IMG/VR virus record: IMGVR_UViG_3300029859_000151
From: a virus
Taxonomy: Duplodnaviria > Heunggongvirae > Uroviricota > Caudoviricetes
DNA: 64,000 nt
Direction: 5' to 3' (one strand)
Below, piece by piece: positions 820-34,678 of this stretch. Each line of letters opens with the position of its first letter. Position 1 is the stretch's first letter. The notes below the pieces were generated by a model. It saw only the letters and a list, made by a program, of their open reading frames with translations. It ran no database searches and was not told where the DNA came from. The position numbers were made by a program, and so were the translations under genes.

Positions 820-831
820 TCTGACATATTA
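820..831 (+). promoter_or_regulatory. phage promoter motif copy + conserved 70-nt leader
   Basis: TCTGACATATTAAATATGAACATTAAAAATGAG..AACTCAAATATTTATGAAAAAAGGAGG; leader cassette also at 1917, 5210, 8540, 11068. Confidence 0.6.
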
Positions 832-900
832 AATATGAACATTAAAAATGAGTTTTTTAAAAACTCAAATATTTATGAAAAAAGGAGGTTACAATATAAA

Positions 901-1575
901 ATGAGTAATATGAAGAACTTGACAGTTGAGTACCAGAGAGGAAATAGAGCGTGCATATTTAATCCTGCAGTAGATGCAATAGTACCATATGCAACAGTGA
1001 ATGGGAAAAAGGCAATGCAGGTATTAGAAGAGCAAAATGCAGTATTGAGACTTGCAGACAATGGAGATACACCATTAGCCGCAGTGTTAACAGCAATAAA
1101 TCGTGGTGGAGTAGAGATAGGCGGGAAAACGTCATGTCGAATAACAAAGGATAGTGGTAGGGTACTATTCTCAAAAAAGAAAGATGGCATACCTATTGTA
1201 GTACAGAACAGTGGAAATAAAAAGATAAAACTCGATAGTGACTTTGTTGAAATGATGAAATATGACACAAGTCATTTTGGATGGGTAATGTACAACATAG
1301 CACAGAATGAAGATGATAAAATACTTCTGATAGAGAAAGACTCATGCAAATATATGGATATGCCTGGGATAGTGCTAAAGCGAAAGAGCATAAAAGAGAG
1401 CAAAGCAATAAAAGAGTCATATAAAATAATGAAAAGCGGAGGGATAGTAACAAAGTATTGTTTAGGCGGCATACAGTATTGCAGTAAGTATGCGCAAGGC
1501 GACGAAATAGAGGCAGCAAAACAGCAAAGAGAACGTACTAGAGCAGGAGTAAGGGCAGCAACAAGACTTGATTAA
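901..1575 (+). CDS. hypothetical protein (224 aa)
   Basis: ATG at 901 follows AAAAAAGGAGG RBS; the track's ATG at 835 lies inside the conserved promoter motif (ATATGAA) and is rejected as a start. Confidence 0.6.
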   Translation: MSNMKNLTVEYQRGNRACIFNPAVDAIVPYATVNGKKAMQVLEEQNAVLRLADNGDTPLAAVLTAINRGGVEIGGKTSCRITKDSGRVLFSKKKDGIPIVVQNSGNKKIKLDSDFVEMMKYDTSHFGWVMYNIAQNEDDKILLIEKDSCKYMDMPGIVLKRKSIKESKAIKESYKIMKSGGIVTKYCLGGIQYCSKYAQGDEIEAAKQQRERTRAGVRAATRLD

Positions 1576-1577
1576 GC

Positions 1578-1763
1578 ATGGAGGAAATAAAAATGTTTGG
1601 AATGATAATGATGTTTATCATCATAGGAGCTGGCGGAGTTGGATTAACATATGTAGGATGTGATACAGATTGTGCAGTTTTAAAATGGATAGGATACGCT
1701 ATAGGAACATTAGCAATTCCAGCAATCATATTGATAGTAAATTTCGCAAGCATAGGCGTTTAG
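1578..1763 (+). CDS. small hydrophobic membrane protein (61 aa)
   Basis: RBS GCATGGAGGAAATAAAA-ATG; almost entirely hydrophobic sequence. Confidence 0.5.
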   Translation: MEEIKMFGMIMMFIIIGAGGVGLTYVGCDTDCAVLKWIGYAIGTLAIPAIILIVNFASIGV

Positions 1764-1837
1764 GAAAAAATGATCACGGTTGAGAAGTTGAGACAATTAT
1801 TTACAATAATGAAGTAAACAAGAGTCCAATAAACTAA

Positions 1838-1890
1838 TCTGAGAAAAACAAAAGGCCCCGAGACGAAAGTTCCGGGTCTTTCTTTTTTGC
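1838..1890 (+). terminator. terminator module (copy 2)
   Basis: AAACTAATCTGAGAAAAACAAAAGGCCCCGAGACGAAAGTTCCGGGTCTTTCTTTTTT; paralogous to 741-800. Confidence 0.5.
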
Positions 1891-1916
1891 TTTTCATTTT
1901 TTTTATTTTTCAAAGA

Positions 1917-1928
1917 TCTGACATATTA
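1917..1928 (+). promoter_or_regulatory. phage promoter motif copy + conserved leader
   Basis: TCTGACATATTAAATATGAACATTAAAAATGAATTC...AAATATTTATGAAAACGGGAGG. Confidence 0.6.
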
Positions 1929-2002
1929 AATATGAACATTAAAAATGAATTCAATGAGAATTCAAATAATTTAAATATTTATGAAAACGGGAGGTTGTTA
2001 TA

Positions 2003-2299
2003 ATGTTACATTTTGAAGCTGGAAATTTATATGAAGTGTGTGAAATAGCAAATCCATTAATTTTAGTTGATAGAGAAAGCAAATCTTTCCGATCAATTAA
2101 CGAGAAGTGCTTGTTCATGGATTCTGTCAGTGGAAAAATTAAAAGTTACGATCCTTTGTTATGGGCGCCGGATGAGTTCACATATGTTAGATGCATTAAT
2201 ACAAATCCATTAACATTTGAGGCATCTAATTGCGATAAGAGTAACACAAATAATGGAAGAAACACAAAGAATTTTATCAAAAAGATTTTGCATTTATAA
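2003..2299 (+). CDS. hypothetical protein (98 aa)
   Basis: ORF after GGGAGG RBS; followed by a strong terminator. Confidence 0.55.
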   Translation: MLHFEAGNLYEVCEIANPLILVDRESKSFRSINEKCLFMDSVSGKIKSYDPLLWAPDEFTYVRCINTNPLTFEASNCDKSNTNNGRNTKNFIKKILHL

Positions 2300-2316
2300 G
2301 TAAAATCAAAAAGGTT

Positions 2317-2346
2317 GAACCCTAAGAGTAATCTTAGGGTTTTTAA
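2317..2346 (+). terminator. rho-independent terminator
   Basis: GAACCCTAAG-AGTAAT-CTTAGGGTT followed by TTTTAATTTTT. Confidence 0.7.
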
Positions 2347-2358
2347 TTTTTGTAAATA

Positions 2359-2370
2359 TCTGACATATTA
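2359..2370 (+). promoter_or_regulatory. phage promoter motif copy
   Basis: ATATCTGACATATTAAAAATAA. Confidence 0.55.
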
Positions 2371-2409
2371 AAAATAACAATAATTCATTGTTTGAGAAAG
2401 GAGAAGGAC

Positions 2410-3351
2410 ATGAAAAAACAACTTCAGAATATTTCTATTGCTGGATGTATTGGAGCAGGAAAAAGCATGATATCTAAAGAACTGGAAAAAGAGGGCTACC
2501 AAATTGTCTCTGCCGGAAGCCTTTTTCGCCAATACGCAAAAGAGCATAATATCTCTATAGAAGAAGCTATTTCCGGCCATACAGAAATTGATACAAAAAT
2601 TGATTCAAATATTGTAAATCTAGGGAAAACAAAATCTGGGATTGTTTTTGACTCTAGAATGGCATGGCATTTTGTGCCAGATAGTTTTAAGGTATTTGTT
2701 TATGCTGATTTGGACGTGGCTGCTGATAGAGTTTTTAAAGCAAATCGTGAAACCGAAAGTTTTCAAACAATTGAAGAATGCAAAAATAATATTTTATCCA
2801 GACAATCAAAAGAACTAGCGAATTATCAAAAAATGTATGGACAAGATTATATGGATAGCAAAAATTATGATTTGATTATTGATTCTACATATGCAACGCC
2901 AGAAGAAGTAGCAAAGAAAATTTTAGAGTGCATTGATCATCCTCATGCAAAATTTCAAATGAATCCCAGGTCTTTATATCCAACTCAGAATATTAGAGAT
3001 TTGTCAGGAGAAATTCTTGATCAATATGTGAAAAAAGAAATTCCTGCTGGCAGTATTAAAATAGGATGTTATGATGGATACTTTGGGGTTACAGATGGGC
3101 ATCACAGATTTTTAGCTGCTGCTATAAATAAAGAGCCTTTTATTTCGGCTGAATTTGATCCTATGCCAGAAAAAACACATATTGTCTCTAAGACCGAAAT
3201 TTATAATTATGAAGACGTTGCTGGATTTTATTATTCAGAATATCCGGAGGATAAAGAAAAATATTGTTTCGTTGAATTTTGTAATGAAAGTCCGGAAATA
3301 ACTGTTGGATTTGAAAAAGAAAAAGAAGATGTATTGGAAGTTGAACCATAG
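2410..3351 (+). CDS. cytidylate-kinase-like P-loop kinase fused to ParB/Srx-like domain (DGHHR motif)
   Basis: N-terminus has Walker A IAGCIGAGKS and SAGSLFRQ, resembling the cytidylate-kinase-like family. C-terminus has GCYDGYFGVTDGHHRFLAA, resembling the ParB/sulfiredoxin (DGQHR-like) fold. ATG at 2410 after GAAAGGAGAAGG RBS. Confidence 0.7.
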   Translation: MKKQLQNISIAGCIGAGKSMISKELEKEGYQIVSAGSLFRQYAKEHNISIEEAISGHTEIDTKIDSNIVNLGKTKSGIVFDSRMAWHFVPDSFKVFVYADLDVAADRVFKANRETESFQTIEECKNNILSRQSKELANYQKMYGQDYMDSKNYDLIIDSTYATPEEVAKKILECIDHPHAKFQMNPRSLYPTQNIRDLSGEILDQYVKKEIPAGSIKIGCYDGYFGVTDGHHRFLAAAINKEPFISAEFDPMPEKTHIVSKTEIYNYEDVAGFYYSEYPEDKEKYCFVEFCNESPEITVGFEKEKEDVLEVEP

Positions 3352-3499
3352 CTTTAACACGCCGTGAGCAAGAAATCCCTCACTTCTATAAGTGGTGGGA
3401 TGAATTGCGATAAACACGGCGTTTACTTAACTTTTATATCTTATAGTATTATAATCTAATTATAAATCAGTCGTATTTGTTAGAAAGGTTGTAAATATA

Positions 3500-3904
3500 A
3501 TGCATTTAGACACAAATAATCATTCGGTGTTCATGTTACATTATCATCTTATCATGTGTGTAAAATATCGTAATAAAGTGATAAATGATGATATCTCTAA
3601 TCGTTTGAAGGAGATATTTATAAAGATGCTCCTACCTATAATATTACGTTAGAAGAATGGAATCACGATATAGACTATGTTCATGTTCTATTTAGAGGGC
3701 AACCAAATACTGAAATCAGTAAATTTATTAATGCTTATAAATCTGCAAGCAGTCGGTTTATCAAAAAAGAATATCCAAAGATTCGCAAATCTCTTTGGAA
3801 AGAGATGTTCTGGTCACAAAGTTTTGCCTACTGACCACAGGTGGAGTTACTACAGATATTATTAAACAATATATTCAATCACAAGGTAAAAAAGATGGCA
3901 AATA
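3500..3904 (+). pseudogene. tnpA: IS200-like Y1 (HUH) transposase TnpA, disrupted by at least two frameshifts
   Basis: translation MHLDTNNHSVFMLHYHLIMCVKYRNKVINDDISNRLKEIF in frame 1 continues as KDAPTYNITLEEWNHDIDYVHVLFRGQPN..SKFINAYKSASSRFIKKEYPKIRKSLWKEMFWSQSF in another frame and ..CLLTTGGVTTDIIKQYIQSQ in a third; total span about 135 codons, equal to full-length TnpA. Confidence 0.65.
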
Positions 3905-5034
3905 AAGCAATTAAATATAGAGTATACCCTACAACTGAACAAAGTATCATGTTTGCAAAAACCTTTGGCTGTTGCCGTAAGGTCTATAATCTTATGCTTT
4001 CTGATAAGATTGAAGGTTATAAAATGACTGGTAAATTTCCAATAGTCACACCTGCTAAATATAAAAATGAATATCCCTATCTTAGAGAAGTAGATAGTCT
4101 TGCTCTTGCCAACAAACAGATGGATTTGCAGGAAGCCTTTCGTAACTGTTTTAGCAGATCTCGTAAAAAGAATAATGGATTTCCTAAATATAAATCTGCA
4201 AAGCATAGCCGTAAAGCATATACTACAAACAATCAGAAAGGTACAATTTCTATTATAGATAACAAATATATCAAACTTCCTAAAATTGGTAAAGTGAAAG
4301 CTGTCATCCATCGTAACCCTGATAGCTATTGGGTTATTAAATCTGCTACTGTATCTCAGGAATCAGATGGAAAATATTATATTTCTATACTTTTTGAATT
4401 TGATAATGTTGTAAATACTTATATAGCCGATAAAGCGAATGCTATCGGATTAGATTATGCTTCTAATGGCTTATATGTGGACAGTAATGGCGATGTAGGC
4501 ACTAACCACAAATACTATCGTGAAAGCCATGATAAACTTGCCAAGGCACAACGGAGATTATCACGCATGCAAGGTTCTAAAAAGGATGAAGAAAAGTCTA
4601 ATAATTACATTAAACAGCTGCGTAAAGTAAACAAAATCCACAGACATATTGCTAATCAGCGTTTAGATAACTTACATAAAATATCTACTGAGATAGCCAA
4701 TCAGTACGATGTTGTTTGCGTGGAAAGTCTAAACATGAAAGCTATGTCCAATAAGGGATTTGGAAACGGTAAGGCTACTCTTGACAATGGATATGGCATG
4801 TTTCTGTCGATGCTTAAATATAAGCTGACTGATAGAAATAAGTATCTTGTAAAAGTAGATAAATGGTTTCCGTCATCACAAATATGTCATTGCTGCGGTG
4901 CATTACATCCCGAAATGAAGAATTTAGCAATCCGTACAATGAAATGTGATTGCGGTCTTACAATCAGTCGTGACCAGAACGCAGCTATCAATATATTACA
5001 GGAAGGATTACAGATTCTGACTGAAGCAGCATAG
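3895..5034 (+). CDS. tnpB: TnpB (RuvC-like RNA-guided nuclease family, OrfB_IS605) with C-terminal zinc finger
   Basis: MANKAIKYRVYPT N-terminus; RuvC-like blocks IGLDYASNG, VVCVESLNMK, RDQNAAINIL; CHCCG..CDCG zinc finger; start overlaps the tnpA end. Confidence 0.85.
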   Translation: MANKAIKYRVYPTTEQSIMFAKTFGCCRKVYNLMLSDKIEGYKMTGKFPIVTPAKYKNEYPYLREVDSLALANKQMDLQEAFRNCFSRSRKKNNGFPKYKSAKHSRKAYTTNNQKGTISIIDNKYIKLPKIGKVKAVIHRNPDSYWVIKSATVSQESDGKYYISILFEFDNVVNTYIADKANAIGLDYASNGLYVDSNGDVGTNHKYYRESHDKLAKAQRRLSRMQGSKKDEEKSNNYIKQLRKVNKIHRHIANQRLDNLHKISTEIANQYDVVCVESLNMKAMSNKGFGNGKATLDNGYGMFLSMLKYKLTDRNKYLVKVDKWFPSSQICHCCGALHPEMKNLAIRTMKCDCGLTISRDQNAAINILQEGLQILTEAA

Positions 5035-5175
5035 CAAAATCAAATATATAGTAGGGATGGAATTGACCCGAACTTATACGCCTGTGGACATTGCGTAAGG
5101 CATGTGGCTGCATAACATTGCAGCCAACGCAGTAGTGGCTGAAGCAGGAAGCCCCGACTTCTATAAGTCGGAGTA
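5035..5175 (+). ncRNA. probable TnpB-associated omega-RNA / right-end structured region
   Basis: immediately 3' of tnpB; multiple hairpins (TGCAGCCAACGCAGTAGTGGCTGAAGCAGG, CCCCGACTTCTATAAGTCGGAG) ending at the IS right end. Confidence 0.4.
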
Positions 5176-5209
5176 GTTCACAATTTTAACTCTTCTTATA
5201 TTTTGAAAA

Positions 5210-5221
5210 TCTGACATATTA
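5210..5221 (+). promoter_or_regulatory. phage promoter motif copy + conserved leader
   Basis: sits immediately outside the IS right end; TCTGACATATTAAATATGAACATTAAAAATGAGTTTTTTTAAAACTCAAATATTTATGAAAAAAGGAG. Confidence 0.6.
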
Positions 5222-5285
5222 AATATGAACATTAAAAATGAGTTTTTTTAAAACTCAAATATTTATGAAAAAAGGAGAAACGGAA

Positions 5286-5480
5286 ATGAAAGAACAACGT
5301 TTATATGTATGTGAAATGCGTGGAACTAAATACAATGAGAAGGAACGTGCATTAGATTGTGAAAAGGCACATATGCGTCCAGTTGGTTTTGCGGGAATGA
5401 AATTTCATGCAAATGCGACTATTCCTGATTGGGTAGAGGTAACTTTTCCAGATGGATCAAACTGTAGATATAAACATTAA
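5286..5480 (+). CDS. hypothetical protein (64 aa)
   Basis: ATG after GGAGAAACGGAA; the track's upstream ATG lies within the leader motif. Confidence 0.5.
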   Translation: MKEQRLYVCEMRGTKYNEKERALDCEKAHMRPVGFAGMKFHANATIPDWVEVTFPDGSNCRYKH

Positions 5481-5566
5481 AGAGAAAAAAGTGCGTAGGA
5501 TAAAAAAAGTATGCAAAAAATTAACTGAGCACTGCATTTATGGAAAGGTATAAAGGAGAGTAAATA

Positions 5567-5881
5567 ATGAAGAAAGAAATTATTGTCAAATTTGAAGATA
5601 AAGATTTTGAATTGCTTAAAGGCGATATTCCTAGTAGCCCTTGCCGAAGATGTACACCGGCCGAAAGAGCAGCTTGTTGTGGATGCCCTAAAGAAAGAGA
5701 ATACAGACAGAAAATGCAACCTTTTATTGATGCTGGTATTGAAGAGTATGCTGATGTATTCTTGGATTTATATGAAGAGTTGGATGATCTTCGCAATATT
5801 AAAAAAGAGATACAGTCCAATATTGAATCTTTGCCTGGGGAACTCAGAAAATTAGCTAAAAGTATTTTCCAAATGGATTAA
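5567..5881 (+). CDS. hypothetical Cys-rich protein (104 aa)
   Basis: RBS AAAGGAGAGTAAATA-ATG; CRRC..CCGC cluster. Confidence 0.5.
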   Translation: MKKEIIVKFEDKDFELLKGDIPSSPCRRCTPAERAACCGCPKEREYRQKMQPFIDAGIEEYADVFLDLYEELDDLRNIKKEIQSNIESLPGELRKLAKSIFQMD

Positions 5882-5998
5882 ATTGTAAATATGAAAGATA
5901 AGGAGAAGAAATTATGCGGAATATGAAAAAAATTGGCAAATAAACAGGATATCGTTCGTTTTTCTATTTTACATCCAATTAAAAAGGAGAAATAGCTT

Positions 5999-6274
5999 AT
6001 GGAAAAAGATTTTATGAATCCCCCAATGAATTTGTCAGAGACGATTACAGAACTTCCAAAACATGCTGTTGTATCTATTTGCGGAAACAGAGTGACGGCA
6101 GCCATTCCATCAGAGAATATGATTCTTATCAATAATCTTCTTAATGCGATTGTGAAATGCACTGATATTCCTAAAGAACAGTATGAAGACTGGTTGAAAC
6201 AGGAAATCGGAATGGATGACCGAAAGATCGCTGAATTGAAAAGATTTCAATGTTTCCCGGAGCCTGCTGCATGA
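5999..6274 (+). CDS. hypothetical protein (91 aa)
   Basis: RBS AAAAAGGAGAAATAGCTT-ATG. Confidence 0.45.
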   Translation: MEKDFMNPPMNLSETITELPKHAVVSICGNRVTAAIPSENMILINNLLNAIVKCTDIPKEQYEDWLKQEIGMDDRKIAELKRFQCFPEPAA

Positions 6275-8539: not shown

Positions 8540-8551
8540 TCTGACATATTG
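8540..8551 (+). promoter_or_regulatory. phage promoter motif copy (variant ..ATATTG) + conserved leader
   Basis: TCTGACATATTGAATATGAACATTAAAAATGAATTCAATAGGAATTCAAATATTTATGAAAACAGGAG. Confidence 0.55.
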
Positions 8552-8615
8552 AATATGAACATTAAAAATGAATTCAATAGGAATTCAAATATTTATGAAA
8601 ACAGGAGAAAAATTT

Positions 8616-12871: not shown

Positions 12872-12883
12872 TCTGACATATTA
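12872..12883 (+). promoter_or_regulatory. phage promoter motif copy
   Basis: TATCTGACATATTAAATATGAAATTTAAAAAC. Confidence 0.55.
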
Positions 12884-12925
12884 AATATGAAATTTAAAAA
12901 CAAAAGAAAAAAGGAGGATTTTTTT

Positions 12926-21582: not shown

Positions 21583-21624
21583 AAAAAGAGAATAAAATTA
21601 TTGAAAAATGGAGGATACACATAT

Positions 21625-24453
21625 ATGAATACGAATGATTTGAAATGTAATTGCAGCTTAAGAAAAAGTAGAAATATTCAAACAGATTCGGAAACGGGAA
21701 TGGAATATGCTAAATCTGTTGCTGTCAAAAAGGTGTTACGAGAAGCATTAGAAAACAGTTATACCAAAAAAGATATTATGGATAGATTGGAGGAAGAATT
21801 TAAATATGTAGATTTCCCTACCGAAAAAACAGGTGATATTATCTCAAAAGACATGGCAGCTTGTTTATGGAGATATATCGTCGAAGAAAGAGCTTTAGGC
21901 CGTACAATTAAATTTGTTGAACCTATAAAGTTAAATATCTTTGATACAGAAATTACTGTTAGACCAGATTTTATTGTGTGCGGAGCAAATTCCTTTGAAG
22001 TTGTAAAAATCAGAGCATCTAAGAATTATATGACTAAAACTGAGGAAATGGAAGACAAGGAATTATACGCATTGTTGCAGTATGGAAAAGCTTTGATTCC
22101 AGTAAATACCGTAGGGACTGTAACGGCATCGTATTATTTTTTACGAAAGAAAACAGATTCTGTAAAAGACAATATTTTTGATCCAGGATTTTTTGATGAT
22201 GATTCTGTAAAAAATGGACACACGATTATCTCTTATGCAGATTATATTGTGGATAAAACTTACAATCCGGAAGGAGAGAAGAATCCACTGGATTATAAAT
22301 TTGAGAAAATTTACAATGATTTTTTTGTTGGCATTTCAGAAGAAGACGTTGATACAGAAGAATGTGAGAAATGCGATTTTAAGAATATTTGTGGTTATAA
22401 AAATGCTCCACAGTATATTGTGAAAGAACATAAAGTGAAATCTATTAGTGATTTATCTCTTACAAGTATGCAGGAAAAAGCCATTTCAGCTAAAGCAGGA
22501 TTATATAGAATTAACGCCGGTGCAGGAGCAGGAAAGACATTGGTTGTCGCTCTTCGAGTAGTTAATCTTTTGTTAAGTGGAGTTAACCCAAAAGAAATTT
22601 GTCTGTTGACATTTACAAATGCCGGGGCAAGTGAAATGAGTGAAAGAATTCAGCTCTATAATGCTGATTTTGGAACAGGAATGGATACTTCTAAAATTGT
22701 TTCATGCACCTTTAATAGCTTTGCGAATATGGTAATCAAAAAGCATTGGAAAGATCTCGGTTTTACAGAAAAACCATTGCTAATTGATGATGTAGAAAGG
22801 CTGAGTATTATCGATGATATTCTGGGAAAAACATATATTCCTGGTCTTGATTATAGAAACTATGATGAGGATCGCGTAAGTTTGAAAGGAGCGTTAGCTG
22901 TTACAGCAAAAGCGTTTTCTATTATTAAAACATATCAGTTAAATAGAGGGGATGAAGATATCTTACAGGAAAAAATGAGAGATATTTCTCGCTTTATTTC
23001 TGATCCAATTGCATATACCCAGCTGTTAGAAGCATATGACGATTATGATCAAATTTTGTTGAACAACAATTTGATTGAATATGCAGATCAAGAAATTTTG
23101 ATGTTTAAAATGCTTGAGCTAGATCCATATTATTTTGAAAAAATGGGGTTTAAGCATATTATCGTTGATGAATTCCAGGATAGTAATGAACAGCAAATTC
23201 GATTAATTAAAGAATTGAGGAGCTGTCCAAGCTATGAATCTTTAATGGTTGTAGGAGATGACTCTCAGTCGATTTTCTCATTTCGGGATACAACGCCAGA
23301 ATACATTGTTCATTTCTTTGAGCTTATGGGCGAAGACGGAGAAGATTTCTTCCTTTTGGAAAATCATAGGTCAACGCCAGAGATAATTGATTTAGCAAAT
23401 AAAATCAATGCCTTAAACAAAGAAAAAGTGGACAAAAATTTAATTGCCACTAGAGACCATGGCAAAAAACCGGTTGCAAAAGGATATTTCTCTAAAGAGG
23501 ATGAATTAGAAGAAGTCTCCAACAAAATCAAACAGAAAATCATTGGAGAGGGGGCAAAGGCAGAAGATATTGCATATATCGCATCCGACAAATTTCAGTT
23601 ACTGGAAATGGGAGATATCTTGACTGAAAAGGGAATCCCGTGGGTTATGTTAAATCCGGAACCTGTATTAGAGGATGCTAAAGTTGTGGCAACAATCGCT
23701 TTAGCCAAGGCAATTGAAAATTATGATAACACAGAAGCTATTTTAACTTATCTGAATGTTTTATATAGCAATAAGCTTTTGGTAAAAACAGATGAGGAAA
23801 TCAATACTTTGATTGTTGGGATGCAGGAGCAGATTAAAAAATTCTTGATGTTGACAGACAGAGACAAACAGCTTGGATTTTTTGAAATGACAGATCTCTT
23901 AAATGATGACGAGGATGAACTGTTTGAAAATTTTATAGAAAAGTTAAAACATAAAAAGACTTTTGAACAGGTCGCAGAGTATCTTCGTAAATTCGAACGA
24001 TTTGGGAAAAATGTGACATACAAAAGAACAAAAGATTATCCAGGAGTCGTTTTAACAACAGCTCATTCATCCAAAGGATTGGAATGGCCAATAGTTTTTG
24101 CGGAAATCACTAAGTTCCATAAAAAATCTTTCGGAGGAAATGGAGCGTCAGGAAAAACAAGAGATCAGGCAATTGAAGAAATGAGAAGACTTCTTTTCGT
24201 TACCATCACAAGAGCAAGAGATGAATTATATGTAGTTGGACAATATAAAGCTTTCGGCTCGAAAAAAGACAGGGTTTACAATATGTTTCTTAAAGAAGTG
24301 TATGATGCCCTTGATTTAGCCTATGGTCCTATTGATCCGATGGAAGAAGAAAGAGAAAGAGCGGCAAAAGAGAGAATCAATGCTCGATCAAGAGAACGAA
24401 GAGCAAAGAAAAAAGCAGAACTTATAGGATTAGCAAATGCAAAAGCTGTGTAA
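21625..24453 (+). CDS. UvrD/PcrA-like SF1 DNA helicase with about 290-aa N-terminal Cys-cluster nuclease-like domain
   Basis: helicase motif I GAGAGKTLVVALRV, Ia LLTFTNAGASEMSERI, II IVDEFQDSNEQQ, VI TTAHSSKGLEWPIVF. N-terminal part has LKCNCS plus CEKCDFKNIC (4 Cys, Cas4/AddB-like Fe-S arrangement) and FEVVKIRASK (E-x-K). Confidence 0.8.
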   Translation: MNTNDLKCNCSLRKSRNIQTDSETGMEYAKSVAVKKVLREALENSYTKKDIMDRLEEEFKYVDFPTEKTGDIISKDMAACLWRYIVEERALGRTIKFVEPIKLNIFDTEITVRPDFIVCGANSFEVVKIRASKNYMTKTEEMEDKELYALLQYGKALIPVNTVGTVTASYYFLRKKTDSVKDNIFDPGFFDDDSVKNGHTIISYADYIVDKTYNPEGEKNPLDYKFEKIYNDFFVGISEEDVDTEECEKCDFKNICGYKNAPQYIVKEHKVKSISDLSLTSMQEKAISAKAGLYRINAGAGAGKTLVVALRVVNLLLSGVNPKEICLLTFTNAGASEMSERIQLYNADFGTGMDTSKIVSCTFNSFANMVIKKHWKDLGFTEKPLLIDDVERLSIIDDILGKTYIPGLDYRNYDEDRVSLKGALAVTAKAFSIIKTYQLNRGDEDILQEKMRDISRFISDPIAYTQLLEAYDDYDQILLNNNLIEYADQEILMFKMLELDPYYFEKMGFKHIIVDEFQDSNEQQIRLIKELRSCPSYESLMVVGDDSQSIFSFRDTTPEYIVHFFELMGEDGEDFFLLENHRSTPEIIDLANKINALNKEKVDKNLIATRDHGKKPVAKGYFSKEDELEEVSNKIKQKIIGEGAKAEDIAYIASDKFQLLEMGDILTEKGIPWVMLNPEPVLEDAKVVATIALAKAIENYDNTEAILTYLNVLYSNKLLVKTDEEINTLIVGMQEQIKKFLMLTDRDKQLGFFEMTDLLNDDEDELFENFIEKLKHKKTFEQVAEYLRKFERFGKNVTYKRTKDYPGVVLTTAHSSKGLEWPIVFAEITKFHKKSFGGNGASGKTRDQAIEEMRRLLFVTITRARDELYVVGQYKAFGSKKDRVYNMFLKEVYDALDLAYGPIDPMEEERERAAKERINARSRERRAKKKAELIGLANAKAV

Positions 24454-24540: not shown

Positions 24541-26811
24541 ATGTTACAGATTTCTACATTTTTTATACAGAATAGTGATGAAGCAACTTCATTAGAAAAG
24601 AAAAATCATGAAAATGCTTTTGAATATTTGCCGGAAGCGAAAGCTAAAACATATAGTGAACTTTTGGATAATAAAACTGGCGTAGGATGCACAATTCAAT
24701 TAGTCCCTTCAGAAAAGGAAGGGGCTAAAGAAAATGCGTTAATTGAAAATGGAATGAATTTATATTTGTTATCTACAGCCAGAAGAGCCTTCTTGGAAAA
24801 AGATTGCGATTGTTTGGTTAGCTTATCGTTTAATGAAGATAGTCCGGAAAACAAAAATCGAAATGGGATGATTGTTTATGCCATTTTAAAAACTGATAAT
24901 CGTAAATATATAGATGATATGTTGCCGGATATTTCAAAATATATTTGTGAAAAATTAGGTATTGAAGAAAGTAATACTGAAGAAATAGATAATAACAGAA
25001 TGAGTTCTGAACAAAGAAACGAAAGTAATAAAAGTAATGATGACAATGAAAGTAAGAAAAGCACAAATGAATCAAATGAAATTAGCAATGAGAAAATAAC
25101 GAAAACTTCTGATGCTTTAGATATAATGCCAACAACCGTTTTAAGCCAAAAACAGGCTATAGATAATTACTCCTTGAATAATAAAGAAAGAAATGTGTCT
25201 AAAAAAACAGAAAAGGTTTCAGAAAATTTAAAATCAAAAAAAGTAACAGAAGAAGATATAGAAGATATTTTTTCTATTGCTCAAAAACAAGAAAAAACAT
25301 CTAACATAGAAGAATTTGAAAAGTTTGAATTAGAAAATAATGAAGAGAATCAAAAAAATGAAAAGATGGATTCTTTTTTTATAGAAGAATCTGATAAAAA
25401 TGAAGAAAAGCTATTTTTGGATGAACCACACGAGATAGAGGATGAAAATGAAACAAAATTTCAAAAAAAAGAAAATAAGGAAGAGCAACTAAAAAGACAA
25501 AAAGAAACACAAAAGGAATTGTTAAAAAAATCATCGAAGAAAGCCCCTTTTTTAAATGTAATTGATAATTATATTCCTGATAGCAACTTGGAAAATAAAG
25601 AACTTTTCAAAACATATCACGATGTTGATTACAACATAAAAACAACTGCTTCTAAAGATAAAATAGATAAACTTTTTAATCAGGCACTTAGTTATTGCTA
25701 TCAGAATAAAAGAAGTGAACTTTCTCATGCACAGGAAGGATCTGGAGATATCAAAGCTTTTTTGAATACAATTGCTATTTATGTAAAAGATAGCTTAGAT
25801 CTTCCAGTTGAAGACCGCGATTATTTTATGGATAAAATAAAAAGAGCTTTATTCTCTTATTATATTTTAATCCCATTGATTAACGATCCTCAAGTTTCTG
25901 ATATAAAGGTACTTGCCCCAGATAAAATAAATGTAAAAATAGATGGTATTCATTATAGTGTAGATGGATTAAAATTTGTTGATGCAGACGATTTCCTTAC
26001 CTTTACACTTGGATTAATGCGCCGAAATGGAGCTAAACCGATCAACGGTATTTCAAAATTTACAGATACTAAATTCTGTGATAATTATATTCTCCGATTT
26101 GATGTAACGTTCCCTCAAATAAATGTAAGCGGGTTCCCTGTTGTTCATATTAGAAAAATGGAAAAGAACAAAATGATGATTTCTGATTTAATTAAAGCGG
26201 GAATGTTGGATGAAAAAATGGCAGCTTATTTTAAAGATAAGTTGCGGACAAGTAAAGGTATCGTTATTGCTGGACCATCTGCATGTGGAAAATCAAAGTT
26301 CTTAAATGCGTTAGTAGAAGAAATTCCTTTTACTGAAGCGGGATTAGCAATCCAGGAAGCGGATGAAATTTTTGCTAAAAATCATCCCAATATTATGTGC
26401 CAGCATATGTATTTTGGCGCTAATGGGAATGTTTTGGCTGGAATGGACAAACTTGGAGAAAATGGACTTGTATGCGATGTTAAATATTTTATTATTGGAG
26501 AAATCAAGGGCGCTGAGGCAAGAGACTTTTTGCGAGCAGCTAATACTGGACATATATGTCTATGCACAGTACATACGCCGTCAGCAGAAGAAACAATTCC
26601 TCGATTAGCTGATTATGTGATGCGCGGAACAAGATATAGTATGGAAGAGGCAGAACGACTTTTAAAGGATTTGGAAATAATTGTATATGTTGATAGATTT
26701 AAAATCCGGGAAATAACAGAAGTCCTCGGGTATGATGAAGAACATAAAAAATTAATCTATCGAACAGTATATCTAAGAGATTACCAAAATGAAAACGGAA
26801 AGAGTGCTTAA
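24541..26811 (+). CDS. CpaF/TadA/VirB11-type secretion-family ATPase with long low-complexity (K/E/N/S-rich) N-terminal half
   Basis: VSDIKVLAPDKINVKIDGIHY (TadA/CpaF N-domain motif), Walker A VIAGPSACGKSKFLNAL, Walker B and His-box FIIGEIKGAEARDFLRAANTGHICLCTVHTPSAEE. Residues about 140-330 are a repetitive E/K/N-rich region. Confidence 0.75.
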   Translation: MLQISTFFIQNSDEATSLEKKNHENAFEYLPEAKAKTYSELLDNKTGVGCTIQLVPSEKEGAKENALIENGMNLYLLSTARRAFLEKDCDCLVSLSFNEDSPENKNRNGMIVYAILKTDNRKYIDDMLPDISKYICEKLGIEESNTEEIDNNRMSSEQRNESNKSNDDNESKKSTNESNEISNEKITKTSDALDIMPTTVLSQKQAIDNYSLNNKERNVSKKTEKVSENLKSKKVTEEDIEDIFSIAQKQEKTSNIEEFEKFELENNEENQKNEKMDSFFIEESDKNEEKLFLDEPHEIEDENETKFQKKENKEEQLKRQKETQKELLKKSSKKAPFLNVIDNYIPDSNLENKELFKTYHDVDYNIKTTASKDKIDKLFNQALSYCYQNKRSELSHAQEGSGDIKAFLNTIAIYVKDSLDLPVEDRDYFMDKIKRALFSYYILIPLINDPQVSDIKVLAPDKINVKIDGIHYSVDGLKFVDADDFLTFTLGLMRRNGAKPINGISKFTDTKFCDNYILRFDVTFPQINVSGFPVVHIRKMEKNKMMISDLIKAGMLDEKMAAYFKDKLRTSKGIVIAGPSACGKSKFLNALVEEIPFTEAGLAIQEADEIFAKNHPNIMCQHMYFGANGNVLAGMDKLGENGLVCDVKYFIIGEIKGAEARDFLRAANTGHICLCTVHTPSAEETIPRLADYVMRGTRYSMEEAERLLKDLEIIVYVDRFKIREITEVLGYDEEHKKLIYRTVYLRDYQNENGKSA

Positions 26812-32993: not shown

Positions 32994-33066
32994 GGACCAT
33001 TAGTTCAGCTGGTAGAACGCTCGGCTCATAACCGGGAAGTCGTAGGTTCGAGTCCTACATGCTCCA
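32994..33066 (+). tRNA. tRNA-Met (anticodon CAT; elongator or Ile2-lysidine type)
   Basis: manual cloverleaf: acceptor GGACCAT/ATGCTCC (one mismatch), D-arm GTTC-AGCTGGTA-GAAC, anticodon loop CTCATAA, T-arm GTAGG-TTCGAGT-CCTAC, discriminator A. Confidence 0.75.
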
Positions 33067-33105
33067 TTTATATAATAGTTAAAAATTTATTTTTAAATAA
33101 AAACT

Positions 33106-33129
33106 TCTGTACCACTGCTGTACCGAAAA
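33106..33129 (+). promoter_or_regulatory. upstream element, tandem half-duplication (CTGTACCACTGCTGTACCGAAAAG)
   Basis: two CTGTACC copies 12 nt apart, 15 nt 5' of the promoter core at 33145. Confidence 0.4.
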
Positions 33130-33144
33130 GTTTTTAAAAATATT

Positions 33145-33156
33145 TCTGACATATTA
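33145..33156 (+). promoter_or_regulatory. phage promoter motif copy (in front of tRNA-Glu)
   Basis: TATTTCTGACATATTATATATGAAATC. Confidence 0.5.
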
Positions 33157-33172
33157 TATATGAAATCAAAAA

Positions 33173-33246
33173 GGCGCCTTGATCTAATGGTTAGTGATAT
33201 CGCTCTTTCACAGCGAAAATGCAGGGTTCGAGTCCCGCAGGCGTCA
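33173..33246 (+). tRNA. tRNA-Glu (anticodon TTC)
   Basis: acceptor GGCGCCT/AGGCGTC, anticodon stem TCGCT/AGCGA with loop CTTTCAC, T-loop TTCGAGT; the T-stem needs a bulged A (GC[A]GGG/CCCGC). Confidence 0.65.
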
Positions 33247-33370
33247 TTCTCTTCTTAAAAGAAGAGACGTTATGTAATAAAAAGTCGTACTATGTAATGG
33301 CCTCCTTTCTGGGATAGACATATTGGCCGGATGTATCTGTCCTCATCACAACCTAAACATAGGCGGCTAC

Positions 33371-33442
33371 GGGATATTAGCTCAGCGGAAGAGCAATCGA
33401 CTTTTAATCGATAGGTCTCGGGTTCGAATCCCGGATGTCCCA
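33371..33442 (+). tRNA. tRNA-Lys (anticodon TTT)
   Basis: acceptor GGGATAT/ATGTCCC, D-arm GCTC-AGCGGAA-GAGC, anticodon stem ATCGA/TCGAT with loop CTTTTAA, T-arm TCGGG-TTCGAAT-CCCGG. Confidence 0.8.
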
Positions 33443-33680
33443 TGATAGGTCTTTTGCCTTTAAAGGTTTTTTCCTTTATCGCAAAAGTGGCAACTTGTTT
33501 TAGGTGTTTTGATTCATCTAAGCAAGAAAAAAATCAGAAAAAAAAGATGTTGCGAAAGCGCGCGCAAGTAACGGCATCAGTTCACATCATTAATCGCCGA
33601 CTGATTTGGAATACCTTTGTTGGGTGTGAACAAATAACTTTGAAAAATAAGTAATTTGGAAAATAAGCAAAAACATATAT

Positions 33681-33771
33681 GATGCAGTACCGAAATGGTT
33701 ATAACGGCAATCCCTGCTAAGGATTTGTGCTGAATTGAGTAAGCATGGAGGTTCGAATCCTCTCTGCATCG
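33681..33771 (+). tRNA. tRNA-Ser (anticodon GCT), long variable arm
   Basis: acceptor GATGCAG/CTGCATC (perfect), anticodon stem ATCC/GGAT with loop CTGCTAA, variable arm TGTGCTGAATTGAGTAAGCAT, T-arm GGAGG-TTCGAAT-CCTCT, discriminator G. Confidence 0.75.
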
Positions 33772-33790
33772 TTATAACAATTTAATATAT

Positions 33791-33873
33791 GCCATATGTC
33801 CGGGTGGTTGAGGGAGCGGTCTTGAAAATCGTTGGCCTATAAAGGCTTGCAGGTTCGAATCCTGTGTATGGCG
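33791..33873 (+). tRNA. tRNA-Ser (anticodon TGA), long variable arm
   Basis: acceptor GCCATAT/GTATGGC, anticodon loop CTTGAAA, variable hairpin GCCT-ATAA-AGGC, T-arm GCAGG-TTCGAAT-CCTGT; D-arm non-canonical. Confidence 0.6.
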
Positions 33874-33909
33874 TTAAAAGAAAAAATATAAATATATTTT
33901 CTCTTTTTA

Positions 33910-33981
33910 TAATAAAGTAATGGGCATTCGCCAAGCGGTAAGGCACTGGATTTTGATTCCAGCATCCGTAGGTTCGAATCC
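33910..33981 (+). tRNA. tRNA-Gln (anticodon TTG)
   Basis: U1:A72 acceptor TGGGCAT/ATGCCCA typical of bacterial tRNA-Gln; anticodon stem CTGGA/TCCAG with loop TTTTGAT; T-arm GTAGG-TTCGAAT-CCTAC. Confidence 0.8.
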
Positions 33982-33988
33982 TACATGC

Positions 33989-34061
33989 CCAGTTAATATT
34001 CTCCTATAGCTCAGTTGGTAGAGCACACGACTGTTAATCGTGTTGTCGTAGGTTCGAGTCC
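33989..34061 (+). tRNA. tRNA-Asn (anticodon GTT)
   Basis: acceptor TCTCCTA/TGGGAGA, D-arm GCTC-AGTTGGTA-GAGC, anticodon stem CACGA/TCGTG with loop CTGTTAA, T-arm GTAGG-TTCGAGT-CCTAC. Confidence 0.8.
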
Positions 34062-34158
34062 TACTGGGAGAGTTAGCAATGTGAACGAGAGCACGGGATA
34101 GTTCTTAAAGCTGCAAATTTACGGGTTCGTAAAGCGAAAAAGCGCATTGCTTAAATAT

Positions 34159-34230
34159 TGCGGAGTAGAGCAGTGGCAGCTCGCAGGGTTCATAACCCTG
34201 AGGTCGCAGGTTCAAATCCTGCCTCCGCCA
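34159..34230 (+). tRNA. tRNA-Met (anticodon CAT), initiator-type
   Basis: 1:72 mismatch (U1 x C72), A11:U24 in the D-stem and three consecutive G:C pairs (GGG/CCC) closing the anticodon stem are the bacterial initiator signatures; anticodon loop TTCATAA; T-arm GCAGG-TTCAAAT-CCTGC. Confidence 0.7.
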
Positions 34231-34248
34231 TTTCAATTAATATAATTT

Positions 34249-34321
34249 ACGCCCAAGGTGATGTGGTTCGTTGCAACTGGCTTATATCCAGCGATTTTGG
34301 GTTCGATTCCTAATGGGCGCA
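34249..34321 (+). tRNA. tRNA-like sequence, possibly tRNA-Ile (TAT) or a degenerate tRNA
   Basis: good acceptor (CGCCCA/TGGGCG, 6/7), T-arm TTGGG-TTCGATT-CCTAA, anticodon stem CTGG/CCAG with loop CTTATAT; the D-arm pairs only via G-U and is non-canonical. Confidence 0.3.
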
Positions 34322-34628
34322 TTAAATTTCTTGGCATTTATCGTTTAGCGATATTGTAAGCCCTGTTACCGCATTTTGGTAGAGCCGACTATATAACGAC
34401 TCTAGTGCGCACGAAACTTAAATGCGGTATATCTATTAAACTCTGTTCCGGATTTCATATGATTTTCGGGACGAAATCCCAATCAAGAGTTTTGAACTGC
34501 AAACAGACGCAAATCAGTTTGGGTTTTAGGAGATATGGGTTTTTCTTATATAAATTATACCAACGCATTCAGTATCCATTATTTTGATGGATATTTTTTA
34601 TTTTTCATTTTTTTCTATTTTTTAAGTA

Positions 34629-34640: not shown

Positions 34641-34678
34641 AATATGAAATGTTGATTAAGAAAAAAGGAGATGAAAAA

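What the first reader, a model, noticed from the sequence alone, without database searches (positions are those of the whole stretch)
3355..5175. IS200/IS605 element with decayed tnpA but intact tnpB and probable omega-RNA, embedded in a phage intergenic region
tnpA is full-length in span but needs at least two frameshifts. tnpB (397 aa) retains all RuvC-like catalytic blocks and its zinc finger. The 140-nt 3' region carries strong hairpins ending in the TCTATAAGT subterminal motif that is also present at the left end. This is a host-derived mobile element hitch-hiking in a phage. It implies the sequence has resided in cells for some time (prophage or plasmid-like state). The TnpB-omega-RNA pair could still be an active RNA-guided nuclease. 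The insertion sits exactly between a terminatorless gene end (3351) and the next phage promoter (5210).
Basis: partly seen in the sequence, partly recalled or inferred. Interest (0 to 1): 0.55.

Follow-up and report, generated by a model that had tools for sequence, protein, structure and literature searches.

The report
Crippled IS605-type transposon with intact TnpB
This is an ordinary IS200/IS605-family jumping gene sitting in a large gut mobile replicon: its transposase gene is dead, but its RNA-guided nuclease (TnpB) and guide-RNA scaffold look intact, and because related genomes exist with and without it, it could be used to test transposase-independent "homing".

Summary
The element is 1,824 bp (3358-5181). 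It sits 3' of a TTTAA target (3353-3357) and ends in ...GTAGTTCAC.

**tnpA (3500-3905) is dead.** It has two 1-nt deletions (at 3626/3627 and in the T-run 3822-3825). It also has a His-to-Tyr change in the HUH motif (3676-3678). At least 12 independent metagenome assemblies carry the same sequence, so these are not sequencing errors.

**tnpB and the 3' RNA region look intact.** tnpB is 379 aa (3895-5034), not 397. It aligns full-length to ISDra2 TnpB and keeps the D/E/D triad. The 3' ~140 nt fold into a structure supported by covariation across 60 homologues, consistent with an omega-RNA.

**The insertion is derived.** Seventeen sister contigs have the empty site. About 41 nt of spacer are missing in the occupied allele. 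Relatives of the element are common in Lachnospiraceae.

**Not supported.**
- The target is TTTAA, not TTAC-like.
- No prophage or plasmid phase needs to be inferred.
- "Phage" is unverified: the window has no virion genes, and a VirD4-like gene lies just upstream.

This is a new member of a known kind. One modestly interesting point: no sampled empty allele carries a perfect TAM plus guide match.

The parts
3353..3357 (+). TTTAA target site, which is also the presumed TnpB TAM. It belongs to the host replicon, not to the element.
   Evidence: TTTAA is invariant at positions -5 to -1 in 33 of 34 independent copies; position -6 and beyond are random. It is also present in all empty sites.
3358..5181 (+). 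Complete IS200/IS605-family element, 1,824 bp.
   Evidence: Homology to MT835474 and to many viral and bacterial copies begins at CACGCC (3358) and ends at GTAGTTCAC (5181). Sister contigs lack this stretch.
3375..3401 (+). Left-end subterminal imperfect hairpin (CCCTCACTT-CTAT-AAGTGGTGGG). Its foot lies about 17-19 nt from the cleavage site.
   Evidence: The DNA fold gives -9.2 kcal/mol with z = -3.3. It is conserved in 34 copies. The window carries a lineage-specific C-to-T change in the stem.
3427..3455 (+). Best sigma-70-like match inside the left end (TTAACT-17-TATAAT), upstream of tnpA. This is a consensus match only.
   Evidence: scores it 10 of 12. The total number of promoter-like hits in the region is no higher than in shuffled sequence.
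3500..3905 (+). tnpA pseudogene (Y1/HUH transposase). It carries a 1-nt deletion at 3626/3627, a 1-nt deletion in the T-run 3822-3825 (T4 instead of T5), and an HUH His-to-Tyr codon at 3676-3678.
   Evidence: Frames were read. The deletions show against the intact MT835474 copy. Pfam Y1_Tnp hits the N-terminal piece. The repaired protein scores 134 bits on NF033573 against a cutoff of 55 and aligns to ISDra2 TnpA 2XM3 at E = 4e-22. The window reads DYVH where 24 of 24 relatives read DH[VI]H.
3895..5034 (+). tnpB, 379 aa. RuvC residues are D187 (4453-4455), E277 (4723-4725) and D360 (4972-4974). The zinc-finger cysteines are C331, C334, C351 and C353.
   Evidence: Pfam finds three domains. NF040570 scores 293 bits against a cutoff of 100. 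The protein aligns full-length to ISDra2 TnpB (8BF8/8EXA/8H1J) at E = 1.8e-53, with D191/E278/D361 aligned to D/E/D. dN/dS against relatives is 0.04-0.08.
5030..5181 (+). Presumed omega-RNA (reRNA) scaffold. The 5' limit is approximate. It contains five conserved helices, including the right-end hairpin at 5151-5174.
   Evidence: In a 60-sequence alignment, 28 pairs are 97.6% paired, against 35-43% when partners are slid. Seventeen pairs show compensatory changes, and 0 of 500 shuffles reach the observed values. The MFE is -45.4 kcal/mol with z = -2.5. There is no Rfam match. The window has one C-A mismatch at the base of the last stem.
5177..5181 (+). TTCAC, the right-end cleavage pentamer and the last bases of the element.
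   Evidence: It is conserved in 58 of 59 copies, with flanks diverging immediately afterwards.
5182..5197 (+). Presumed 16-nt guide segment of the omega-RNA (AATTTTAACTCTTCTT), encoded by flanking replicon DNA.
   Evidence: This is inferred from position. In ISDra2 the last ~16 nt of the reRNA come from the flank (PMC8612924). No TTTAA plus guide match with 5 or fewer mismatches occurs elsewhere in the window.
5210..5238 (+). Repeated promoter-like 29-mer of the host replicon, downstream of the element. It is not part of the IS.
   Evidence: There are five copies in the window (820, 1917, 5210, 8540, 12872), against 0 expected by chance. The longer module is aligned.

Best explanation
Window 3358-5181 is an IS200/IS605-family insertion sequence of the IS608/ISDra2 type. 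tnpA and tnpB are co-oriented and overlap, and the ends carry subterminal hairpins rather than inverted repeats.

**Origin and position.** The element circulates in Lachnospiraceae and their mobile elements. It inserted 3' of a TTTAA in the spacer between a (d)CMP-kinase-like gene and the next transcription unit. The host is a large (250-334 kb contigs), AT-rich gut replicon.

**Shown.**
- The ends, the target and the empty sites are defined.
- tnpA is inactivated three times over: an HUH His-to-Tyr change and two frameshifts. The second frameshift cuts off the catalytic-Tyr helix.
- Every recovered copy with this exact TnpB lies at this one locus with identical junctions.
- The element therefore no longer transposes on its own. 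It is inherited vertically and moved between genome backgrounds by homologous recombination.

**Inferred.**
- tnpB (triad and zinc finger intact, strong purifying selection along its lineage) and the conserved 3' structured RNA still make a TnpB-omega-RNA nuclease.
- That nuclease would recognise TTTAA followed by AATTTTAACTCTTCTT.
- This sequence is split by the element in its own genome. It is (nearly) reconstituted in IS-less sister genomes.
- When both types share a cell, the likely activity is cutting the empty allele and being copied in by repair. This is transposase-independent, 'non-restorative' homing.
For: **Identity.**

**Ends and target.**

**Empty versus occupied alleles.**

**tnpA lesions are real.**
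- The sequence is identical in L019, L028-L036 and L120-L122, from at least 12 samples.
- L030 is an intermediate with one frameshift only.
- The window has HUH Tyr where 24 of 24 relatives have His.

**No mobility.**
- All contigs carrying the exact TnpB show the same neighbours.
- There is no second copy in the window.

**Recombinational spread.** L030 is about 2% diverged from the window outside 1494-6080. Inside that tract it is identical except for the 3627 indel.

**TnpB integrity.**
- The D/E/D triad aligns to ISDra2 D191/E278/D361.
- dN/dS is 0.04-0.08.

**Omega-RNA.** Covariation is strong.

**Mechanism precedent.**
- TnpB-reRNA uses a ~16-nt flank-derived guide (PMC8612924).
- TnpA-independent spread of IS605 in a plasmid population has been interpreted as non-restorative homing (review PMC13565253).
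Against: - There is no expression or cleavage data.
- All copies in this replicon are identical, so selection on tnpB since insertion cannot be measured. An intact tnpB may only reflect recent arrival. If indels were neutral and uniform, the chance that both fell in tnpA rather than tnpB is about 0.07.
- The window's right-end/omega-RNA terminal stem has one C-A mismatch, and the left-end hairpin has one substitution.
- None of the 17 sampled empty alleles carries a perfect TAM plus 16-nt match. Homing into the genomes actually sampled may therefore be inefficient.
- Ordinary recombination explains L030 without any nuclease.
Confidence: 0.8

Rival explanations
1. Inert fossil. The element arrived recently, perhaps already tnpA-defective and mobilised in trans. 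It is now a neutral passenger, and tnpB and the RNA are intact only because too little time has passed for them to decay.
For: There is zero sequence variation in tnpB among at least 12 samples, so no selection signal exists within the replicon. The tnpA lesions show that decay has begun. Both terminal hairpins carry lineage-specific substitutions. No perfect target exists among the sampled empty alleles.
Against: Three lesions fall in the 406 nt of tnpA and none in the 1,140 nt of tnpB. The 10 window-specific TnpB residues are mostly conservative, and dN/dS is 0.04-0.08. The IS-bearing tract is found in a background that is about 2% diverged.
Confidence: 0.35
2. The frameshifts are sequencing or assembly errors, and the element is an intact autonomous IS.
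For: The second lesion lies in a homopolymer (T4 versus T5).
Against: The same sequence appears in assemblies from many studies and assemblers (MEGAHIT k141, SPAdes NODE, scaffolds, Logan). The first lesion is not in a long homopolymer, and one sample lacks it while keeping the second. An independent HUH His-to-Tyr missense change is also present.
Confidence: 0.01
3. Domesticated TnpB. The nuclease has been recruited by the replicon, either as a regulator (TldR-like) or as a weapon against competing replicons or the host, rather than serving the IS.
For: tnpA has been lost while tnpB is retained. The element lies directly upstream of a repeated promoter module. Sister genomes carry other tnpA-less OMEGA nucleases in the same region.
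Against: The catalytic triad is intact, so it is not TldR-like. No TAM plus guide site exists elsewhere in the 64-kb window. The element is present in only a minority of genomes: the exact TnpB occurs in 32 collection blocks, against 117-136 for neighbouring genes. It is therefore not a fixed function.
Confidence: 0.07
4. The sequence is ancestral to the replicon, and the 'empty' genomes are deletion derivatives.
For: The empty and occupied alleles differ by more than a clean insertion, because about 41 nt are also missing. One variant (L118) has lost the whole region by recombination between promoter repeats.
Against: Empty alleles retain the TTTAA and an uninterrupted spacer. The element has its own ends and is found at unrelated sites in dozens of bacterial and viral genomes, always next to TTTAA.
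Confidence: 0.02

Closest known systems
ISDra2 (Deinococcus radiodurans), IS200/IS605 family: TnpA (PDB 2XM3) and TnpB-reRNA (PDB 8BF8/8EXA/8H1J)
   Same: Both have a Y1/HUH tnpA followed by tnpB and a 5-nt target that doubles as the TAM. Both have a reRNA of about 150 nt made from the tnpB 3' end plus the right end, with a ~16-nt flank-derived guide. TnpB aligns over its full length (E = 1.8e-53) with the D/E/D triad conserved. TnpA aligns at E = 4e-22.
   Different: The target/TAM here is TTTAA, against TTGAT for ISDra2 (from the literature and my own knowledge). The second zinc-finger half is CxC rather than CxxC. tnpA here is a pseudogene. No Rfam family matches the RNA.
IS608 (Helicobacter pylori), the mechanistic model for the family
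   Same: tnpA and tnpB are co-oriented. Imperfect subterminal hairpins are present at both ends. The left cleavage site lies outside the element, about 19 nt before the hairpin foot, and the right cleavage site is the last few bases of the element, about 7-10 nt after the hairpin. There is no target duplication.
   Different: The cleavage motifs are TTTAA/TTCAC instead of TTAC/TCAA (the IS608 values are from my own knowledge). The occupied site here also lost about 41 nt of flank.
Non-autonomous tnpB-only IS200/IS605 derivatives, and 'non-restorative homing' of IS605 in plasmid populations (review PMC13565253)
   Same: tnpA function is lost while tnpB and the omega-RNA are retained. The insertion is polymorphic at a single locus in a multi-copy, recombining replicon population.
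   Different: tnpA here is still full-length and only recently broken, with a visible decay series. Nuclease activity and biased inheritance have not been shown.
Free-standing and intron homing endonucleases of large phages (T4 Seg/Mob, I-Tev)
   Same: These are selfish nuclease genes in intergenic spacers. They are present in some genomes and absent in close relatives, and adjacent tracts are co-inherited. The same window has an HNH/NUMOD4 ORF splitting nrdD.
   Different: Recognition here would be RNA-guided rather than protein-based. Self/non-self discrimination comes from the insertion splitting TAM from target.

Membership tests
IS200/IS605 insertion sequences | Encodes a Y1 (HUH) single-strand transposase, TnpA | tested here: met
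   The gene is present as a pseudogene. Pfam Y1_Tnp hits the N-terminal piece. The frame-repaired protein scores 134 bits on NF033573 (cutoff 55) and aligns to ISDra2 and IS608 TnpA structures.
IS200/IS605 insertion sequences | Subterminal imperfect hairpins at both ends and no terminal inverted repeats | tested here: met
   The hairpins lie at 3375-3401 and 5151-5174 and share CTTCTATAAGT. They are conserved, with compensatory changes, across copies.
IS200/IS605 insertion sequences | Insertion 3' of a fixed 4-5-nt target, without target-site duplication | tested here: met
   TTTAA precedes 33 of 34 copies. Right flanks are unrelated to it. Empty sites show no duplication, although about 41 nt are missing in the occupied allele.
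IS200/IS605 insertion sequences | Able to transpose autonomously (functional TnpA) | tested here: not met
   tnpA has two frameshifts plus an HUH His-to-Tyr change. All copies of this exact element lie at one locus. It is a member by descent but is no longer autonomous.
TnpB (OMEGA) RNA-guided nucleases | TnpB fold and domains, with the RuvC D-E-D triad and a zinc finger | tested here: met
   NF040570 scores 293 bits (cutoff 100). Pfam finds three domains. D187/E277/D360 align with ISDra2 D191/E278/D361, and four cysteines are present.
TnpB (OMEGA) RNA-guided nucleases | Cognate structured omega-RNA encoded at the tnpB 3' end and right end, followed by a flank-derived guide | tested here: inconclusive
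   A conserved structure with strong covariation lies exactly there. However, the last helix is also the DNA hairpin used by TnpA, and the RNA itself, its ends and its expression were not observable. There is no Rfam hit.
TnpB (OMEGA) RNA-guided nucleases | TAM-dependent, guide-dependent DNA cleavage | not testable with these tools
   This needs a biochemical or interference assay.
TldR (nuclease-dead TnpB-like repressors) | Loss of RuvC catalytic residues or a C-terminal truncation, with a guide matching a promoter | tested here: not met
   The triad is intact. No TAM plus guide target exists in the window.
Homing (super-Mendelian) genetic elements | Presence/absence polymorphism at one orthologous site, with the nuclease target formed only in the empty allele | tested here: inconclusive
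   The polymorphism is shown. The empty alleles contain TTTAA+AATTTTA[A/C]CT[C/T]TTCTT, but none of the 17 is a perfect match.
Homing (super-Mendelian) genetic elements | Co-conversion of flanks, or transfer into diverged backgrounds | tested here: inconclusive
   In L030, a 4.6-kb identical tract sits inside a background that is about 2% diverged. This is compatible with homing or with plain recombination.

The most novel reading that the evidence does not exclude
The tnpA-dead element survives in this replicon population as an RNA-guided homing drive. TnpB-omega-RNA from occupied genomes would cut the TTTAA+AATTTTAACTCTTCTT site of IS-less genomes sharing the cell, and the element would be copied in by repair.

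On this reading, the empty alleles that remain are resistance alleles. The sampled ones are:
- A-to-C at guide position 8, in all 12 empty alleles of that type, including all 10 that share the identical kinase haplotype.
- C-to-T at guide position 12.
- An 8-nt deletion that removes the TAM context.
- TTTAA changed to TTCAC at the neighbouring site.

Other tnpA-less OMEGA nucleases (a second TnpB and an IscB-like protein) are polymorphic in the same genome region and could behave the same way.
Probability: 0.15. Interest if true: 0.7.

Novelty: new member of a known kind. Interest (0 to 1): 0.4.

Why it matters
The element itself is routine. tnpB genes that have outlived their transposase are among the commonest genes known.

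Its value is as a natural test case. Public metagenomes hold many near-isogenic copies of one large gut replicon, both with and without the element. The TAM, guide, empty-site variants and a stepwise tnpA decay series are all defined.

This makes one proposal directly testable: whether TnpB alone can maintain and spread an immobile IS by transposase-independent homing. That has so far been shown only in engineered plasmid or chromosome systems. The test needs four short target variants and one protein-RNA pair.

The finding also cautions against calling this replicon a phage.

Tried and rejected
- **Rfam.** An E-value scan of 3000-5600 found no family.
- **PLSDB plasmids.** No DNA match to the element.
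- **INPHARED phages.**
  - One match to the element, MT835474 at 82%.
  - No relative of the surrounding genome.
  - Only proteins below 35% identity.
- **IMG/VR.** Scans with the two flanking proteins found nothing.
- **Promoter and terminator scan.** Hit counts were no higher than in shuffled sequence, so they were not used as evidence.
- **Self-targeting.** No TTTAA plus guide match with 5 or fewer mismatches occurs in the window.
- **Escape alleles.**
  - SNP density between occupied and empty haplotypes is 1-2.5%.
  - With only 3-4 independent empty lineages, mismatches in the 21-nt site are only marginally unexpected (roughly P = 0.03-0.07 by my estimate).
  - I therefore do not claim escape as a finding.
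- **Base composition.** tnpB GC3 is 27%, at the low end of the family and near the replicon's 24%. That is too weak to date the residence time.
- **Hodor megaplasmids (PMC12934698).** Considered and rejected. Their GC is 44-47% against 32% here, and no sortase or Rep_3 was seen in the window.
- **Origin of the 41-nt loss.** Several routes fit and none could be singled out:
  - insertion at either TTTAA followed by a microhomology deletion;
  - a two-site integration.
Full report
**What is in the sequence**

Reading 2900-5600 and listing ORFs shows three things. There is a broken Y1-transposase reading frame starting at 3500. A long ORF ends at 5034. A 23-nt motif is shared between 3371-3393 and 5146-5168.

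Translation in the three frames gives:
- MHLDTNNHSVFMLHYHLIMCVKYRNKVINDDISNRLKEIF in frame 1;
- APTYNITLEEWNHDIDYVHVLFRGQPNTEISKFINAYKSASSRFIKKEYPKIRKSLWKEMFWSQSF in frame 3;
- CLLTTGGVTTDIIKQYIQSQGKKDGK* in frame 2.

Pfam assigns Y1_Tnp to the first piece. It assigns HTH_OrfB_IS605, OrfB_IS605 and Cas12f1-like_TNB to the protein starting at ATG 3895. NCBIfam places that protein in the RNA-guided TnpB family (NF040570, 293 bits, cutoff 100). It places the frame-repaired TnpA in NF033573 (134 bits, cutoff 55).

**Exact ends and target**

One record in the phage collection, MT835474 from human faeces, holds an 82%-identical copy with an intact 135-aa tnpA. Scans with TnpB returned 17 viral and 80 bacterial loci.
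- In 59 loci the right end could be mapped. Homology stops at ...GTAGTTCAC and the flanks differ from the next base on.
- In 34 loci the left end could be mapped. The element starts with CACGCCGTGAGCAAGAAATC.
- It is preceded by TTTAA in 33 cases and TCTAA in one. Composition at -6 and beyond is random.

The element is therefore 3358-5181 (1,824 bp). TTTAA (3353-3357) is the target and presumed TAM. TTCAC (5177-5181) is the right cleavage motif.

Hairpins fold at 3375-3401 and 5154-5171. Their spacing from the cleavage sites resembles the IS608 arrangement (own knowledge).

**It is an insertion**

I looked up the exact 104-aa, 64-aa, 313-aa and 246-aa neighbouring proteins and the exact TnpB in public assemblies. 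This recovered the same genome region from human-gut metagenomes on contigs of up to 334 kb.

Seventeen contigs have the kinase gene followed directly by a ~140-nt spacer and the next genes, with no element (L020-L027, L127, L132-L139). Thirteen loci from at least 12 samples carry the element (L019, L028-L036, L120-L122).

The closest empty alleles read CATAG-CTTTAA-AATAATTGATTGGAAATCTATTGCCATTCTAAAAGTTTTAA-AATTTTACCTCTTC. The window reads CATAG-CTTTAA-[element]-AATTTTAACTCTTC. So about 41 nt lying between two TTTAA|AAT motifs are missing in the occupied allele.

Two routes explain this equally well: insertion at one motif followed by a microhomology deletion, or an integration that used both motifs. 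I could not separate them.

**tnpA is really dead**

Against intact relatives, the window lacks one base at 3626/3627 (GATTGC to GATGC). It also lacks one T in the run 3822-3825.

The whole element is base-for-base identical in assemblies from many independent samples and assemblers. This excludes sequencing error. One sample (L030) has the first site in frame (GACTGC) but the same short T-run. So the T-run deletion, which detaches the catalytic-tyrosine helix, came first, and the 3627 deletion came later.

A third lesion was not noticed before. The HUH motif reads DYVH (TAT at 3676-3678), where 24 of 24 relatives and ISDra2 TnpA read DH[VI]H. Otherwise the repaired protein is highly conserved, so the decay is recent.

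**tnpB and the 3' RNA region look functional**

TnpB aligns end to end with ISDra2 TnpB structures (E = 1.8e-53). D187, E277 and D360 sit opposite D191, E278 and D361. C331/C334/C351/C353 sit in the zinc-finger positions.

Against its nearest relatives, dN/dS is 0.04-0.08 with dS near 1. Only 10 residues are unique to the window, most of them conservative.

I aligned the last 220 nt of 60 copies.
- The alignment gives five helices and 28 pairs.
- Pairing is 97.6%, against 35-43% when partners are slid.
- Seventeen pairs have compensatory double changes.
- No shuffle out of 500 reaches the observed values.

This fits the reRNA/omega-RNA described for ISDra2: about 150 nt from the tnpB 3' end and right end, plus ~16 nt of flank (PMC8612924).

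Three caveats apply:
- The last helix doubles as the DNA hairpin for TnpA.
- The window has one C-A mismatch at its base.
- Rfam has no matching family.

The guide would be AATTTTAACTCTTCTT (5182-5197).

**No sign of current mobility, but movement by recombination**

All contigs with the exact TnpB show the same neighbours. The window has no second copy and no TTTAA plus guide site.

Most occupied genomes are nearly clonal over the flanks sampled. L030 is about 2% diverged from the window outside 1494-6080. Inside that tract it is identical except for the 3627 indel. The IS-bearing tract has therefore been placed in a different background by homologous exchange.

The 900 nt to the right of the element form a haplotype shared by occupied genomes. 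It differs by 2.3-2.9% from every sampled empty genome. The kinase gene on the left is identical to that of many empty genomes.

**Likely mechanism**

*Shown:* this is an immobile IS605-type element with a structurally intact TnpB gene and a conserved RNA scaffold.

*Inferred:* TnpB-omega-RNA recognises TTTAA plus the flank-derived guide. In the occupied genome the element separates the TAM from the target. In IS-less relatives they are adjacent at the second TTTAA.

Cutting there, followed by repair from an occupied copy, would spread the element without TnpA. The OMEGA review calls this 'non-restorative homing' and reports it for IS605 in a plasmid population (PMC13565253).

None of the 17 sampled empty alleles is a perfect target:
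- Twelve have C instead of A at guide position 8.
- One has T at position 12.
- Four have an 8-nt deletion that leaves CTAAA in place of the TAM.

Separately, two of these alleles (L023, L024) have TTCAC instead of TTTAA at the first site, which is exactly the right-end terminal pentamer.

In ISDra2, double mismatches in positions 1-12 abolish cutting (PMC10097598). Single mismatches were not reported there.

This pattern is what a drive with resistance alleles would leave. With 1-2.5% background divergence and few independent lineages, however, it is not statistically secure. The rival reading, a recently arrived and decaying passenger, remains substantial.

**Host replicon**

The window is AT-rich (32% GC) and transcribed almost entirely on one strand. 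It carries:
- nine tRNA genes;
- nucleotide-metabolism and recombination genes with PHROG matches;
- an nrdD split by an HNH/NUMOD4 ORF;
- a promoter-like 29-mer repeated five times.

However, 30 proteins scanned against PHROGs gave no virion or packaging hit. There is a VirB11/TadA-like ATPase at 24541-26811. About 9 kb upstream of the window, sister contigs encode a VirD4-type coupling protein.

Large gut megaplasmids have been mistaken for huge phages before (PMC12934698). This replicon is not one of those 'Hodors', whose GC is 44-47%. I therefore treat 'phage' as unproven.

The family distribution of the IS points to a Lachnospiraceae or related Bacillota host: Butyrivibrio, Coprococcus, Lacrimispora, Blautia and others, up to 89% TnpB identity.

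The inference of a prophage or plasmid phase is unnecessary. These elements integrate into single-stranded DNA during replication (established for IS608/ISDra2).

**Verdict**

This is a new member of a known kind. Interest is moderate: the element is commonplace, but the natural occupied/empty series with defined TAM, guide and target variants is a convenient system for testing transposase-independent TnpB homing.

Noticed in passing
window 49504-52944: The anaerobic ribonucleotide reductase gene nrdD is split. 49504-50190 covers the ATP-cone plus NRDD profile positions 1-104. 51400-52944 covers profile positions 105-562 plus the glycyl-radical domain. An HNH/NUMOD4 endonuclease ORF (50313-51275) lies between them. 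This is a homing-endonuclease or intron-type interruption.
   Followed up: partly
window 820-848, 1917-1945, 5210-5238, 8540-8568, 12872-12900: A 29-mer, TCTGACATATTAAATATGAACATTAAAAA, is repeated five times on the + strand upstream of genes, against 0 expected by chance. At 770-800 and 1858-1890 it is preceded by a GC-rich terminator-like hairpin. It is probably a replicon-specific promoter module. The IS sits 28 nt upstream of one copy.
   Followed up: partly
L118 (ERZ28596095), corresponding to window ~850-5240: In this variant contig the 60-aa gene is joined directly to the promoter module of the 64-aa gene. That is the pattern expected from a ~4.4-kb deletion by recombination between two copies of the repeated promoter module, which would remove the kinase gene and the IS. 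The deleted span is inferred by eye and was not aligned.
   Followed up: partly
L128 1-677 and L129 1-904 (about 9 kb upstream of window position 1); window 24541-26811: A VirD4/TraG-type coupling protein gene (PF02534) lies just outside the window. A 756-aa VirB11/TadA/FlaI-like secretion ATPase lies inside it. No virion genes were seen, so the replicon may be a conjugative megaplasmid rather than a phage.
   Followed up: partly
L128 2128-3518 and L129 2018-3295 (sister genomes, upstream of the window): Other polymorphic OMEGA nucleases occur in the same genome region. One is a tnpB-only element (365-aa TnpB with a remnant tnpA C-terminus and its own right-end/omega-RNA-like tail) that replaces a 96-aa gene region. 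The other is a 425-aa IscB-like protein (RRXRR + HNH) in another genome. Both are absent from L127.
   Followed up: partly
L023 and L024, position equivalent to window 3353-3357: Two empty alleles read CATAGCTTCACAATAG instead of CATAGCTTTAAAATAG. The TTTAA target is replaced by TTCAC, which is identical to the last five bases of the element followed by the same AAT. This could be a footprint of a lost insertion, a TAM-escape change, or coincidence.
   Followed up: no
window 32994-34322: There is an array of nine tRNA genes: Met, Glu, Lys, Ser x2, Gln, Asn, Met and Ile-UAU.
   Followed up: no
window 2392-3351: The gene upstream of the IS is a (d)CMP-kinase-like protein with an extra C-terminal ~130 aa that has no Pfam or NCBIfam match. 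That part contains a GVTDGHHRF motif, which from memory resembles ParB/sulfiredoxin-type domains.
   Followed up: no
window 21601-24453, 40456-42573, 54334-56943, 34649-36328, 61202-63601: There is a dense recombination/repair set: a UvrD-type helicase with an N-terminal PD-(D/E)XK nuclease, two RecD2-like helicase paralogues, a RecJ-like exonuclease and a type IA topoisomerase.
   Followed up: no
L001 (MT835474.1 68190-70020): An unannotated human-faecal 'Bacteriophage sp.' scaffold carries an 82%-identical copy of the same IS. Its tnpA is intact (135 aa) and its tnpB is 384 aa. It is also inserted after TTTAA.
   Followed up: yes
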